Shown: positions 35,985-43,920 of the stretch, in pieces
Layout of the letters: every line of letters begins with the position of its first letter
Position numbering within the stretch: the stretch's first letter is position 1
NCBI RefSeq assembly: GCF_009914755.1
Contig: NC_060935.1
DNA: 64,000 nt
From: the human T2T-CHM13v2.0 reference genome, Homo sapiens
Direction: 5' to 3' (one strand)
Notes under the pieces: model-generated
Seen by the model: only the letters and a program-made list of their open reading frames with translations
Told to the model about the DNA's origin: nothing
Databases searched by the model: none
Made by a program: the position numbers and the translations under genes

Positions 35985-37139
35985 CCAAATGGTGCATGTG
36001 GAGGTGGTGGTCAAGGTCGCAGTGGCCACATGGGTATAGGAAGTGGCTGAGGTCCCAGAGGACACTCAGGTGAAGGACTCGGTTGAGATAGCAGAGGCCA
36101 GCCAAGTGGAGGAGGTCGCTGATGTACTAGAGGAGACCTGGGTGGAGAAGGTGGCTGAAGTCCCAAGGCCACGAGTGGAGACTATTGAAGTACCAGAGGA
36201 GACTCATGTGAAAGTGGTAGGGGAGGGGCCAGAGGCCACCCAGGTAGGGGAGGTGGCTGAGGCTCCACAGGCTACTAAGTGGAGGAGTAGGCTGAGGTCC
36301 CACAGGCCACACAGCAGAAGAAGGTTGATGAGGTCCCAGAGGACTAACAGCTGCAGGAGGTGGATGAGGTCTCAGAAGACAGGCAGCTGCAGGAGGTGGA
36401 TGAGGTCCCAGAGGACAGGCAGCTGCAGGAGGTGGATGAGGTCTCAGAGGACAAAGAGCTTCGGGAAGTGGTCGAGGTCCCAGAGGACAGAGAGTTGTAG
36501 GAGATAGTTGAGGTCCCAGAGGACACTCCAGTGGAGGAGGTGGTTCAGTTCCCAGAGGGCAGTCGAGTGGAGGAGGTTGATGAGGTCCCAGAGGGCACTT
36601 GAGTGCAGGAGGTGGTTGAGGTCCCAGAGGAAACTTTAATAAGAAGGTTGTTGAGGTTCCAGAGGACACTCAACTGGAGGAGGTGGTTGAGGTCCCAGAG
36701 GACACTCAACTGGAGGAGGTGGTTGAGGTCCCAGAGGACACTTGAGTGGAGGTGGTTGAGGTCCCAGAGGACACTCAAGTGCAGTAGGTAGTTGAAGTCC
36801 CAGAGGACACTAGAGTGGAGGAGATGATTGAAGTTCCAGGGGACACTCGAGTGGAGGACATTGCTGAGGTCCATTAGGAAACTTGAGTGGAGGAGGTATC
36901 TGAGTTCTCAGTAAAACTTCAGCTGGAGAAGGTGTTTCAGGTCCCAGAGGATGTTCGAGTGGAGGATGTATCAGAGGTCCCAGAAAACCTTCAGTTGCAG
37001 AGAGTGGTTGAGGTCCCAGAGGACACGGAGGTGGAGGGGGTGGCTGGCAGCCCATCAATGGTCCGGAAGGGCCAGCCATGAGGTAGGGCAAGTAGGGCGA
37101 TTCTGACAGAGAACGAGGCTCCTGTTCAGCCATGTTGAC
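35985..37139 (-). pseudogene. NPIP-like terminal exon with 36-bp Pro/Cys repeat
   Basis: Acceptor tttcttcctctgccttgcag|; VNMAEQEPRSLSESPYLPYLMAGPSGPLMGCQPPPP vs NPIP [36 protein letters not shown]; first stop at 36810-36812. Confidence 0.85.
36013..37046. repeat. Degenerate 36-bp tandem repeat (~28 units)
   Basis: gaggtcccagaggacact anchors spaced 36 bp apart, except one 30, one 33 and two 35. Confidence 0.95.
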
Positions 37140-39150
37140 CTGCAAGGCAGAGGAAGAAATGTTTTGAAACATACTAATATGAGGGACAAAACACCAAGAC
37201 CAACACAAGCTGCACCTCATGCTGCAGGTGATGGTCTCTTGCACCTTCCCCTTCTTCAGGTTCCTCAACAGCAGCATCAGTGCCATAAAGTCTCCCTTCC
37301 ACTGAGTCCTGCTAACAGCAGAGGAGTGAAAAAAACTCATGGGACAAACTGCTGTCCCCACACGTCACTGTGTCTGTCTGCAAATGTAGGAAGGATGGGG
37401 ACCTGTCCCAGGGAAGACAGAGTCATTCCGCAGTGATAAAGCAGCATGTTTCTGACACAGGGGTGTCTGTGCCTATCCTCATTCCTCCCTCACCACCATC
37501 ACCGGAGCATGCTCCTTGCATCAGATAAACAGAAAGAGAGGAATGGAAAGCCCATTGCTCACACATGAGTCACAGCTATTCTTAAGAGAATGTTCTCCAG
37601 GCCTTTCATGTCCTATCACTGATTCTCAGAACTCTGCAAGGTCAGTGTGACCACCCTGCTCCAAACCTAAGAAAATGGAGGCTCCCAAAGGAAGGAGAAA
37701 ATTCACCCAGCGTCACACAGCTTGCAAGAGGCAGAGAGGAAGCCGATTCCAGCTCTGCCTGCAGGACCCTCTCATCCCCCCTCCGCTTCCCTTCTTGACA
37801 AAGGGTCTTCTCCACTCTGGAGGTGCCACCTGTGGGCACAAAGGTCTCTGGGGAGATGTGGATTCCTGAAGACCTGCAGGGGAATTGGGAGAGGGTTTTC
37901 TCACAGGATGATCCTATGTAGAGAGGTGAGTTTGGCACAGCTATCATATTGCTTTTAACTCTCAGGCAATACCAAATTTTAAGTACACTATGACATAAAA
38001 AATAAGTTTGTCCATGGAAAAATGAGGGGGGATTTCTAAACAACAGAAGTTTTAAAAATGTGTTTGATTTCAAGTGTACAAGTCCCATCATGTGTGATCA
38101 GAGGACGCAGCAGCTGTCGAAACTACAGAGGCCACATGAGAATCAGCTTCACTGAGCATCACTGAAGGTCTTCATTGGGAACTGTCCTTGTAGGCAATGA
38201 GGGACGTTCACTCTTCACTACCTCACAGCCAGGGCACATTTTCTATTGCAAATATAGAACCTCTGACACCTAGAATATGAGATCAAGGGCACCACTGGGT
38301 GGTGGTGGGGGCGATTTTGCACAACGCAGCTACCAACAGAGCTGGGACTACAATGAATTATGGAATTGGCTTTTTCGAAGAGTATTCAAAATTGCACATA
38401 CTAATGTTGGATTAATGAGTTTTCAGTTTTTTTTTACTTCTGGGATTACAGCAGATATTCTAAAGGTTAATCACCTACCTTATGGCAGAAGAGAGATAAA
38501 CTCACGCAAAAAAGAACACCCTACATATTTTGGAAAGCGGACCCCAGCATATTGGAGTAAAATGGGTCAGTCAGGGTCCCCTGGGTCATGAGACCTACAG
38601 CAGTGGAGGTCGGTGGCATCTCCTCGTGTTACTTCTGCAAACAGAACAGTGAAAGCCCTTCAGCCCTCGGGCCCTGAGCATTCATGGCTTCTGCAGGTGC
38701 CACCAAAGATGACTAGCTGGGAATGGAGAAGCCTGGAAGCTCATAAGGACGATTTTGCTTTTGAAAAACAGAAAAGGCACCCCAGAACCCACAGAGCAGA
38801 GGCCAGGCCAGGAGAGGGCGCTGTCGGAAAAGACAAAAGTGTCCTGAAATAGAGTGAAAATGACTCCAGCATTTACCTTTTATCCATTTCTGACAAAGGG
38901 CACAAAGGTAAAAAAGATGTTTGACCGAAAGCTCCGTTGGCGTCCTGTTAGACAAACACCAATCTATCTAATTTCCGTAATGTAAATGGTAGATATCTTC
39001 ATAATTCTTACGCTAATAAATCACTTCCCTGATTTTTTTTTTTTGTAAAACCCAATATTTCTAATGAAGTCCAGAACCATGAATTGTTCTAAATAATTTC
39101 TTCTCACTTATGATTACAAGTATACCTCTACAGGAAGTGAGTATACTCAC

Positions 39151-39283
39151 ACCAAGGCTAGTTTTCCGGAAGAAAAATGCCAAGTGAACAAATTCCCAGC
39201 GAAACAACAATAATAACAAGCATCCAGGGAATTCCAGGAAAGTCAGGCCCAGGACGAAAATGGTCAGGCAGAACATCGATGAC
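39151..39283 (-). pseudogene. NPIP-like exon 2 (hydrophobic segment), damaged
   Basis: VIDVLPDHFRPGPDFPGIPWMLVIIVVSLGICSLGIFL vs NPIP [28 protein letters not shown]; acceptor is CGG not CAG; 133 nt (frameshift); donor GTGAGT. Confidence 0.85.
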
Positions 39284-39522
39284 CCGGAATAATAATAGTT
39301 GAAATAATGAGAAGGCTCAATGACATTGACAATATTTCAGTCACAAAGACTCATCCTTAGAAACCCTCAACCTCCTCCAAGAAGTAACCGCGCCCGTCAG
39401 ATATCACCAGCGAATTCCACTGCTTCAAGAAGGATTGGAAGTTGACAGTCTCATGTTTCTTGCGTGGCTGGTAGTGTTTTTAAGCATTGCAAATATGGGG
39501 TGTCTTTTTTCTTGGTCTAAAG

Positions 39523-43304: not shown

Positions 43305-43580
43305 CGTTTTGTATGAGACAAGGTCTCACTCTGTTGACAAGGCTGTAGTGCAGTGGGGCGATCCTGGCTCACTGCAACCCTCACCTCCTGGGGCCAAGCG
43401 ATCGTCCCACCTCAGCCTCTCAAGTAGCTGGGACTACAGGCGCTCGCTGCCACGTCTAATTGTTTGAATTTTTTGTAGAGATGGGGTTTTGCTATGATGC
43501 CCAGGCTGGTCTCAGATTCCTGGACTCAAGCGATCTGCCCACCTTGGGCCCCGAAAGTGCTGGGATTATGGGCGTGAGCT
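43305..43580 (-). mobile_element. AluJ
   Basis: Antisense J-type Alu. Confidence 0.88.
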
Positions 43581-43589
43581 GTGTTATTT

Positions 43590-43920
43590 CATGCCCCGTG
43601 ACAGCCCAACGAAAAGGAAGGAACCCCGCGGGTCCATAGTGTACTCACGTGGCTGGACTGATGGCTGGGAAACCCCAGCACGAGGAACCAAAAGAGCAGC
43701 CACCGCAGCCGCATGTCCTGGTCCTCTCAGGGCGCCCTGAGGTGGCCAGGGCACAGGTGGGGGTGGCTTAGGGCTGGGGGAGGGAAGGGGATAGGGATGG
43801 GGATGGGGATGGGATCGCAGTTGGGGAAGGGAAGGGAGAGGAGAGGAGGGGAGGGGACTGAAGGGGGGCTGTTGGGCACCTGGAGGAGGAGGAGGTGGAG
43901 GAGAAAGGGGTCTGGGAAAG
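43590..43920 (-). promoter_or_regulatory. Candidate promoter/5'UTR of the NPIP-like locus
   Basis: Locally CpG-richer; long G-run tract on + strand (pyrimidine tract on the sense strand) just upstream of the ATG. Confidence 0.4.
43649..43714 (-). CDS. NPIP-like exon 1 coding part, signal-peptide-like MRLRWLLFWFLVLGFPSHQSSH
   Basis: ATG 43714 (G at -3), 66 nt open, donor CAC|GTGAGT; resembles recalled NPIPB [22 protein letters not shown]. Expression is unknown. Confidence 0.7.

What the first reader, a model, noticed from the sequence alone, without database searches (positions are those of the whole stretch)
35985..43714. Hidden, deeply diverged NPIP/morpheus paralog outside chromosome 16
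Seen: three minus-strand exons in order, not recognisable as a gene from the ORF track. Exon 1 is MRLRWLLFWFLVLGFPSHQSSH|GTGAGT, exon 2 is VIDVLPDHFRPGPDFPGIPWMLVII..., and the last exon is AG|VNMAEQEPRSLSESPYLPYLMAGPSGPLMGCQPPPP. Established (recalled sequences): NPIP proteins have [46 protein letters not shown] and [36 protein letters not shown] at the same exon boundaries; NPIP is the rapidly evolving gene of the LCR16a core duplicon. Introns are retained, so this is a genomic duplicate. Divergence far exceeds that among chr16 copies. Inference: an early outgroup branch of the family lying next to a KRAB-ZNF gene. Novelty must be checked against LCR16a literature, which may already mention an 11p15 copy.
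Basis: partly seen in the sequence, partly recalled or inferred. Interest (0 to 1): 0.9.

Follow-up and report, generated by a model that had tools for sequence, protein, structure and literature searches.

The report
Dead ancient NPIP copy on 11p15.4
This stretch of human chromosome 11 is a real but broken, roughly 80%-identical old copy of the fast-evolving NPIP ("morpheus") gene, one of several such relics that together link NPIP to the secretory-pathway gene MIA3/TANGO1.

Summary
Exon 2 matches Pfam NPIP (PF06409) at E 6.3e-13. The locus (about window 33481-44202) aligns collinearly, exons and introns, at about 75-83% identity with LCR16a/NPIP copies on chr16 and chr18. It aligns equally with previously unremarked old copies on chr10 (two), chr16p12.3, chr7 (two) and chrX.

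In human it is an unprocessed pseudogene:
- the exon 2 acceptor is AG>GG;
- a +1 T frameshift gives a TAG inside exon 2;
- a 7.5-10 kb deletion removes exons 3-7;
- the 36-nt repeat array of the last exon holds two stops and a frame change.

An orangutan model (LOC129008213, 196 aa) splices an intact exon 2 straight to the last exon. A titi-monkey protein is also of the chr11 type, so the copy predates the split between Old World and New World monkeys. Alus shared at identical sites place the dispersal within primates.

The copy is an early branch, but it is not resolved as the outgroup; chrX looks more basal. Exon 2 is homologous to the transmembrane exon of MIA3/TANGO1, which is the family's likely progenitor.

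No paper I searched mentions an 11p15 copy. I could not check GENCODE.

The parts
43715..44202 (-). 5' flank and promoter-like G+C-rich region, homologous to LCR16a and to the chr16p12.3 copy. Homology ends at about 44202, next to an Alu fragment.
   Evidence: blastn aligns win 44173-43642 to the chr16 14.94 Mb copy at 76% and win 44202-41502 to chr16:20.54 Mb at 83%. GC is 0.61 in 43500-43999. The boundary sequence is shown.
43649..43714 (-). Exon 1 of the NPIPB type (MRLRW..., 22 codons, hydrophobic and signal-like), followed by a GTGAGT donor.
   Evidence: Sequence. tblastn to the chr16 copy gives E 7e-8, and it also matches chr16p12.3 and chr18. Titi protein P0004 starts with a 64%-identical exon.
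43307..43579 (-). Alu in intron 1, at the identical site in the chr11, chr16 LCR16a, chr16p12.3 and chr18 copies.
   Evidence: The multiple alignment shows conserved flanks on both sides.
41883..41906 (-). Alternative first coding exon 1a (MKFPVSAE, donor GTGAAT). The orangutan model P0001 begins MKCPVSAE.
   Evidence: Sequence and P0001 sequence. The correspondence was made by eye. The tblastn begins at P0001 residue 6, in exon 1b.
41591..41674 (-). Alternative exon 1b (28 codons, acceptor ACAG, donor GTGAAT), used in the orangutan model. It lies in a part of intron 1 that the chr16 LCR16a copy lacks.
   Evidence: tblastn of P0001 residues 6-37 to win 41683-41588 gives 84% identity, E 2e-14, and 59% in chr16p12.3. 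There is no LCR16a alignment for win 43259-40462.
39151..39283 (-). Exon 2 (transmembrane exon). It matches Pfam NPIP positions 1-37 in one frame and 12-51 in a second frame. The acceptor is GG at 39285-39284 instead of AG. An extra T in the run 39177-39173 shifts the frame and gives TAG at 39160-39158. The donor GT at 39150-39149 is kept.
   Evidence: Pfam results. The orangutan protein P0001 reads through in frame (...SLGICSLAIFFWKTSLG).
38880..38885 (-). Deletion junction. Exons 3-7 (Pfam positions about 52-207) and their introns are missing: 7.5 kb relative to chr10 and about 10 kb relative to chrX. The last bases of exon 7 and its GTAAAT donor remain.
   Evidence: All paralog alignments break at win 38892-38880. 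No NPIP hit was found in any other ORF of the locus.
37140..38879 (-). Remnant of the intron before the last exon.
   Evidence: It aligns to chr10 at 79-87%, to chrX at 79%, and (win 38349-37028) to all scored LCR16a copies at 80-81%.
36038..37139 (-). Last exon: VNMAEQ...QPPPP followed by a degenerate proline-rich tandem repeat (36-nt period, 27.8 copies, 71% matches, 36038-37026). It has an in-frame TAG at 36812-36810 and TAA at 36638-36636, and then the repeat reading moves to another frame.
   Evidence: ORF list, TRF, tblastn to chr16 (53% over 36 aa) and chr10 (75% over 32 aa), and P0001 alignment at 85% over 120 aa with the stop in place of a residue.
33481..36037 (-). 3' flank of the duplicated unit, shared with both chr10 copies and with chrX. 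It holds an Alu (35458-35758) that is shared with chr10 and absent at that site in chrX.
   Evidence: One search shows homology to chr10 and chrX ending at the same base, about 33481. One search shows a contiguous chr10 alignment through the Alu and an empty site in chrX.

Best explanation
Window about 33481-44202 (minus strand) is an unprocessed, non-coding relic of an old interchromosomal duplication of the proto-NPIP (morpheus/LCR16a) gene unit.

What it keeps: the NPIP-type exon 1 with its promoter-like region, the transmembrane exon 2, the last exon with a proline-rich 36-nt repeat array, and intron sequence between them.

Why the human copy cannot make an NPIP-like protein:
- the exon 2 acceptor is GG;
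- an extra T shifts exon 2 into a TAG;
- exons 3-7 were lost in one deletion with a few bases of microhomology;
- the repeat array carries two stops and a frame change.

Shown:
- homology and collinearity with the other copies;
- the lesions listed above;
- the presence of chr11-type copies in orangutan and a New World monkey;
- Alus shared at identical sites with other copies.

Inferred:
- The copy arose in early primates, together with the chr10, chr16p12.3, chr7 and LCR16a lineages. Terminal branches are about 0.07-0.10 substitutions per site.
- The deletion predates the human-orangutan split.
- The two exon 2 lesions arose after that split.
- The whole family descends from a partial duplicate of MIA3/TANGO1 that ran from the transmembrane exon onward.
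For: - Pfam NPIP hits exon 2 at E 6.3e-13. A weak second-frame hit to profile positions 12-51 marks the frameshift.
- Only these 2 of the 149 minus-strand ORFs scanned hit NPIP. A script found 151 ORFs of 20 aa or more in 35701-44400, and the two at the 3' edge were not sent.
- DNA is collinear with LCR16a, chr18, chr10 (two copies), chr16p12.3, chr7 (two copies) and chrX at 75-88% identity.
- In the alignment of seven copies, the acceptor is TCCGG|GTC in chr11 against TCCAG|GT in chr16, chr18 and chr16p12.3. The T run has one base more in chr11 than in all six other sequences.
- The deletion junction is shown.
- Stops and the repeat array are shown.
- Orangutan protein P0001 (nr: uncharacterized protein LOC129008213, precomputed PF06409) joins an in-frame exon 2 directly to the last exon.
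- The last exon of titi protein P0004 aligns to chr11 with score 308, against 119 for chr10.
- Shared Alus are shown.
- MIA3 link: Pfam NPIP hits chr1:221879297-221879449 at 47.4 bits. That ORF retrieves proteins named TANGO1/MIA3, several of which carry a precomputed PF06409 domain.
- tblastn of human MIA3 isoform P0007 to chr11 exon 2 gives E 3.9e-8. BLASTP of P0001 against P0007 gives E 3e-11.
Against: - No expression data could be consulted, so a non-coding transcript or a use of the intact alternative exons 1a and 1b cannot be excluded.
- Only one human haplotype was read, so the two exon 2 lesions could be polymorphic.
- Human-orangutan amino-acid identity is 84-89%. That is low for strict orthologs, so P0001 might come from a close duplicate rather than the syntenic locus.
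- The titi model skips exon 2, so it does not say whether the deletion is that old.
- Deep tree nodes are weak (61-66%).
- The dates rest on substitution rates that I recalled, not on any call.
Confidence: 0.85

Rival explanations
1. It is a still-functional, unannotated short protein-coding gene in human. It would resemble the orangutan four-exon model: a transmembrane helix plus a proline-rich tail.
For: Alternative exons 1a and 1b, the exon 2 donor and the last-exon acceptor are intact in human. The first 109 codons of the last exon are open. The orangutan model is annotated as protein-coding.
Against: The exon 2 acceptor is GG, and the +1 T gives a TAG within exon 2. No AG lies just upstream to replace the acceptor. 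RefSeq lists no gene here (table supplied with the task).
Confidence: 0.04
2. It is a transcribed pseudogene or lncRNA with a regulatory role. This is compatible with the pseudogene reading.
For: A G+C-rich promoter-like region is kept upstream of exon 1. It is homologous to the LCR16a exon 1 region.
Against: No transcript evidence was available. No RefSeq lncRNA is listed here.
Confidence: 0.1
3. It is a direct pseudogene copy of MIA3/TANGO1 rather than a member of the NPIP lineage.
For: Exon 2 keeps more MIA3-like residues (PGPDF.G.PW) than modern NPIP does. Its distance to MIA3 (0.435) is the smallest of all copies.
Against: Flanking DNA is about 80% identical to LCR16a but only 67% identical to MIA3. 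The NPIP-type exon 1 and an intron-1 Alu are shared with LCR16a. No MIA3 SH3 or coiled-coil exon is present.
Confidence: 0.02
4. It is a chance resemblance or a processed retrocopy.
For: None.
Against: E values reach 0 over kilobases of intron. Introns are retained with splice signals.
Confidence: 0

Closest known systems
NPIP / morpheus genes of the LCR16a core duplicon (chr16, plus the chr18 pseudogene that Cantsilieris 2020 calls NPIPBP1)
   Same: It shares exon 1, exon 2, the start of the last exon, a proline-rich tandem repeat in the last exon, intron sequence and one intron-1 Alu. Exon 2 matches Pfam PF06409.
   Different: It is about 20% diverged, against 5% or less among the chr16/chr18 copies. 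It lies on 11p15.4. Exons 3-7 are deleted. The repeat unit is 12 aa, not the 23-aa PLPPS unit described for NPIPA (passage of PMC7419210). It keeps 2.8 kb of intron 1 that the LCR16a copy compared here lacks. It is disabled.
Orangutan LOC129008213 (P0001) and titi-monkey AAY473_035555 (P0004)
   Same: They have the same exon 2 and last exon, with 84-89% amino-acid identity to P0001. P0004 shows the same non-repeat stretch of the last exon.
   Different: The orangutan model has an open 196-aa frame, whereas the human copy has an acceptor loss, a frameshift and a stop. Synteny of both models could not be checked.
Old NPIP-like relics at chr10:80.38 and 81.11 Mb, chr16:20.54 Mb, chr7:65.59 and 56.83 Mb, chrX:50.37 Mb (T2T coordinates)
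   Same: They have the same order of divergence, with K2P 0.135-0.26 between copies (0.087 between the two chr7 copies). They derive from the same duplicated unit. chr10 and chrX share the same 3' boundary.
   Different: The chr10 and chrX copies still hold middle exons. chr16p12.3 is rearranged by an inversion. The chr7 copies cover only part of the unit.
MIA3 / TANGO1 (chr1q41), short isoform
   Same: The transmembrane exon is homologous: 44% identity over 52 aa, E 3e-11. Both have a proline-rich C-terminal part.
   Different: There is no SH3-like domain and no coiled coils in chr11. The proline-rich parts do not align significantly. The DNA is only 67% identical around exon 2.

Membership tests
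NPIP (Pfam PF06409) / LCR16a duplicon | Match to the Pfam NPIP model above its gathering score | tested here: met
   49.4 bits against a cut-off of 27.5, E 6.3e-13, but only profile positions 1-37 of 207. The whole-genome scan gives 48.1 bits.
NPIP (Pfam PF06409) / LCR16a duplicon | Full NPIP domain (positions about 52-207, exons 3-7) | tested here: not met
   No other NPIP hit among the 149 ORFs scanned. A deletion junction lies at 38885-38880.
NPIP (Pfam PF06409) / LCR16a duplicon | Collinear exon and intron homology to LCR16a | tested here: met
   Five collinear blocks at 76-88% identity with the chr16 14.94 Mb copy, and the same with chr18.
NPIP (Pfam PF06409) / LCR16a duplicon | Segmental-duplication level identity to other LCR16a copies (90% or more is the usual definition, recalled) | tested here: not met
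   About 80% identity, K2P 0.20-0.23.
NPIP (Pfam PF06409) / LCR16a duplicon | Proline-rich tandem amino-acid repeat encoded by the last exon | tested here: met
   36-nt period, 27.8 copies. The unit differs from the 23-aa NPIPA unit described in PMC7419210.
NPIP (Pfam PF06409) / LCR16a duplicon | Open reading frame and expression | tested here: not met
   The frame is broken. Expression is not testable with these tools.
MIA3/TANGO1 family | Homologous transmembrane exon | tested here: met
   tblastn E 3.9e-8. BLASTP of P0001 against P0007 gives E 3e-11.
MIA3/TANGO1 family | SH3-like luminal domain and coiled coils | tested here: not met
   No SH3 hit in the gene body. The one weak SH3_2 hit (E 0.14) lies upstream at 44100-44261. 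No coiled-coil exon of P0007 was found in chr11.

The most novel reading that the evidence does not exclude
The chr11 relic and its siblings (chr10 with two copies, chr16p12.3, chr7 with two copies, chrX) would record an early-primate burst in which a proto-NPIP unit was scattered over several chromosomes. That burst would come long before the ape LCR16a expansions.

Because these slowly drifting relics still resemble the MIA3/TANGO1 transmembrane exon (and, in chrX, its coiled-coil exons), they would identify MIA3 as the progenitor of morpheus/NPIP. A 2019 review lists that progenitor as 'no homolog'. NPIP proteins would then descend from an ER-exit-site membrane protein, and the orangutan chr11 copy might still make a minimal protein consisting of a transmembrane helix plus a proline-rich tail.
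Probability: 0.5. Interest if true: 0.65.

Novelty: new member of a known kind. Interest (0 to 1): 0.45.

Why it matters
NPIP is a textbook core-duplicon gene under extreme positive selection. The literature I read gives it no known progenitor and, in human, copies only on chr16 and chr18.

An old, neutrally decaying copy with retained introns gives a slowly changed snapshot of the ancestral gene. It also gives an outgroup for dating and for selection tests. Together with its siblings it gives a direct sequence bridge to MIA3/TANGO1. That bridge makes the origin of NPIP, and a possible ancestral function at ER exit sites or the nuclear envelope, testable.

In itself the human locus is an ordinary pseudogene.

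Tried and rejected
I replaced it with 149 stop-free ORF references.
- One paper search had a term that was too long and was redone.
- The similarity of the 'VNMA' start and the proline-rich tail to the MIA3 C-terminus is not significant by BLASTP (E 2.4 or more). I do not use it.
- tblastn of MIA3 against the two modern chr16 NPIP loci gave no hit at E<0.05. The MIA3 link for modern NPIP therefore rests on the Pfam model and on the intermediates.
- Proteins P0002, P0003 and P0005 (short ENA contigs, human-like ORF calls of the last exon) add nothing and were set aside.
- The chrX-MIA3 grouping in the exon 2 tree (97%) may be an artefact, because the two sequences overlap little.
- Literature searches:
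  - NPIP+LCR16a+'chromosome 11' found 3 papers.
  - NPIP+ZNF195 found 5 papers; I saw the listing only and none looked relevant by title.
  - NPIP+MIA3 found 2 papers.
  - NPIP+TANGO1 found 0 papers.
  - NPIP+cTAGE found 20 papers, of which 10 were listed.
  - 'NPIP-like' found 4 irrelevant papers.
  - MIA3+'segmental duplication'+primate found 2 papers.
- I did not look at the supplementary tables and figures of PMC7419210. They may list further loci or the dog copies.
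Full report
**Observation.** The window is T2T-CHM13 chr11:3348001-3412000 (task table; one search gives the same place). On the minus strand, one search shows three exons.
- Exon 1 has its ATG at 43714 and 22 hydrophobic codons to 43649, followed by GTGAGT.
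- Exon 2 starts at 39283 and has its donor GT at 39150-39149.
- The last exon follows an acceptor AG at 37141-37140 and starts at 37139.

The frame holding exon 2 matches Pfam PF06409 (NPIP) at E 6.3e-13, 49.4 bits against a cut-off of 27.5, over profile positions 1-37 of 207.

**Is it a genomic NPIP duplicate?** A DNA search of the whole genome with window 44300-35900, followed by local blastn against fetched loci, shows collinear homology to LCR16a copies in five blocks. For the chr16 14.94 Mb copy they are:
- win 44173-43259: promoter region, exon 1 and an Alu, 76-80% identity;
- win 40462-39968: 88%;
- win 39984-39642: 79-82%;
- win 39634-38883: exon 2 and its flanks, 81%;
- win 38349-37028: intron plus the first 37 codons of the last exon, 80%.

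The chr18 copy gives the same picture.

**It is one of several old copies.** The Pfam NPIP model finds 116 matches in this genome, from 150 scored of 162 candidates.
- Twelve lie outside chr16 and chr18: chr10 has 6 (two loci, at 80.38 and 81.11 Mb), chr7 has 2, chrX has 2, chr1 has 1 and chr11 has 1.
- A rearranged old copy also lies at chr16:20.54 Mb.
- All of these except chr1 share 72-88% DNA identity with the chr11 locus over kilobases.
- Homology with both chr10 copies and with chrX ends at the same base, window about 33481. On the other side it ends at about 44202.
- The unit on chr11 therefore spans about 10.7 kb.

**The human copy is broken.**
- *ORF scan.* A script found 151 minus-strand stop-to-stop ORFs of 20 aa or more in 35701-44400. 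I sent 149 to Pfam, leaving out the two at the 3' edge. Only the exon 2 frame hit NPIP above the cut-off. A second frame of the same exon hit profile positions 12-51 weakly, at E 0.55. That pattern is the signature of a frameshift.
- *Exon 2 lesions.* In the DNA alignment of seven copies, the acceptor is TCCAG|GT in chr16, chr18 and chr16p12.3 but TCCGG|GT in chr11. The T run at 39177-39173 has one T more in chr11 than in all six other sequences. This puts a TAG (39160-39158) just before the donor.
- *Deletion.* All paralog alignments break at window 38892-38880. To the left lies intron 2. To the right lie the last bases of exon 7 with its GTAAAT donor, as seen against chr10 and chrX. The missing piece is 7.5 kb in chr10, where it holds the Pfam 69-127 and 161-207 matches, and about 10 kb in chrX.
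- *Last exon.* It carries a degenerate 36-nt repeat (27.8 copies, 71% matches, 36038-37026). It has TAG at 36812-36810 and TAA at 36638-36636, after which the proline-rich reading continues in another frame.

**Relatives in other primates.**
- *Orangutan.* The exon 2 frame retrieves a single protein, P0001: 'uncharacterized protein LOC129008213 [Pongo pygmaeus]', 196 aa, with a precomputed PF06409 domain. It is built from two short 5' exons, an in-frame exon 2 and the last exon joined directly to it. The human counterparts of the 5' exons are intact at 41906-41883 and 41674-41591. P0001 maps to the window at 84-89% amino-acid identity. The deletion of exons 3-7 is therefore most simply older than the human-orangutan split, and the two exon 2 lesions younger. 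The identity is rather low for orthologs and synteny could not be checked, so a close duplicate is possible.
- *Titi monkey.* Protein P0004 (Plecturocebus cupreus) has an NPIP-type exon 1. Its last exon follows the non-repeat stretch of chr11 closely, with alignment score 308 against 119 for chr10. The chr11-type lineage therefore predates the catarrhine-platyrrhine split.

**Age and position in the family.**
- *Intron before the last exon (about 1.2 kb).* K2P is 0.135 for chr11-chr10, 0.20 for chr11-LCR16a, 0.17 for chr10-LCR16a, 0.23-0.26 for chrX against all others, and 0.006-0.012 among the chr16/chr18 copies.
- *Exon 2 region.* K2P is 0.16-0.17 for chr11 against chr10 and chr16p12.3, 0.20-0.23 against LCR16a, and 0.435 against MIA3.
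- *Trees.* ML trees give chr11 a terminal branch of 0.074. They group chr10 with chr16p12.3 (94%) and chr7 with LCR16a (61%). The deep order is unresolved (61-66%), with chrX outermost.
- *Shared Alus.* An Alu at 43579-43307 sits at the identical site, with conserved flanks, in chr11, LCR16a, chr16p12.3 and chr18. A second Alu (35758-35458) is shared by chr11 and chr10, while chrX has an empty site there and an Alu of its own nearby.
- *Dating.* Alus are primate-specific (established knowledge), so the dispersal happened within primates. From recalled substitution rates I infer roughly 50-70 million years. This is an inference, not a measurement.
- *Conclusion.* 'Early branch' holds. 'The outgroup' does not.

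**Link to MIA3/TANGO1.**
- The chr1 Pfam NPIP match scores 47.4 bits. Its ORF retrieves 179 proteins at E of 0.001 or less. The 120 listed are overwhelmingly named 'transport and Golgi organization protein 1 homolog', MIA3 or 'melanoma inhibitory activity protein 3', including a human isoform (P0007). Many carry PF06409 as a precomputed domain.
- tblastn of P0007 finds exon 2 of chr11 (E 3.9e-8), chr10 (3.6e-8) and chr16p12.3 (4.7e-9).
- It finds three collinear exons in chrX.
- It finds nothing at E<0.05 in two modern chr16 NPIP loci.
- P0001 against P0007 gives E 3e-11 over the transmembrane exon. The proline-rich tails do not align significantly.
- The old relics are thus sequence intermediates between MIA3 and modern NPIP.

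**Literature.**
- I saw passages of Cantsilieris et al. 2020 (PMC7419210). '11p15' occurs 0 times. All chromosome 11 mentions that I saw concern marmoset 11q. Human copies are described on chr16 plus a chr18 pseudogene. Two dog copies serve as outgroup.
- I saw passages of Bekpen and Tautz 2019 (PMC6920530). Table 1 lists the ancestral gene of NPIP as 'no homolog', and the text says that paralogs outside primates could not be identified.
- One passage of a 2017 preprint (10.1101/116087) notes 16-27% similarity of morpheus to the N-terminal region of MIA3 models, without drawing an origin from it.
- Searches for NPIP+TANGO1 (0 papers), NPIP+MIA3 (2), NPIP+ZNF195 (5, listing only), 'NPIP-like' (4) and MIA3+'segmental duplication'+primate (2) gave nothing further.
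- Supplements were not read, and GENCODE could not be consulted.

**Verdict.** The locus is a genuine, deeply diverged NPIP-family copy that retains its introns and is absent from the RefSeq table. In human it is a dead relic, it is one of at least seven such loci, and it is not demonstrably the outgroup. Its main value is comparative: together with its siblings it ties NPIP to MIA3/TANGO1.

Noticed in passing
G000 chr10:80373001-80391000 (L011, L012) and chr10:81108001-81127000 (L023, L024): An inverted pair of NPIP-like copies lies about 730 kb apart. The two are nearly identical to each other (K2P 0.005-0.011). They keep Pfam NPIP matches to positions 1-53, 69-127 and 161-207 at 70-78 bits. 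Their exon 2 acceptor reads AT instead of AG, and the start of the last exon changes frame.
   Followed up: partly
G000 chr1:221879297-221879449 (L017:6246-6512): The transmembrane exon of MIA3/TANGO1 scores 47.4 bits on the Pfam NPIP model. Many MIA3 orthologs carry PF06409 as a precomputed domain. A 2019 review nevertheless lists NPIP as having no ancestral homolog.
   Followed up: yes
G000 chrX:50366001-50384000 (L015, L016): An old NPIP-like copy still holds three collinear exons resembling MIA3 residues 58-80, 119-146 and 409-433. It looks like the most basal of the relics.
   Followed up: partly
G000 chr16:20536001-20555000 (L019, L020): An old NPIP-like copy at 16p12.3 is about 83% identical to chr11. 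Its exon 1 half is inverted relative to its exon 2 half, and exon 2 has a stop.
   Followed up: partly
G000 chr7:65589001-65599000 (L013) and chr7:56831001-56841000 (L014): Two partial old copies cover intron 1 and the region after exon 2. In the short overlap they are closer to LCR16a (K2P 0.12-0.18) than chr11 is.
   Followed up: no
window 24002-30904: This stretch is 72-80% identical, in several collinear blocks, to chr10:3396016-3400983. It is another old duplicated segment next to the NPIP relic and is unrelated to it.
   Followed up: no
window 41591-41906: Two short coding exons used by the orangutan model (1a and 1b) are intact in human with good splice signals. They lie in a 2.8-kb part of intron 1 that the LCR16a copy lacks but that chr10, chr7 and chr16p12.3 keep.
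   Followed up: partly
proteins P0002, P0003, P0005: Short ENA contigs carry ORF calls that are nearly identical to the human last exon or to the chr10-type frame. They are probably primate DNA in records of other origin. I did not pursue them.
   Followed up: no
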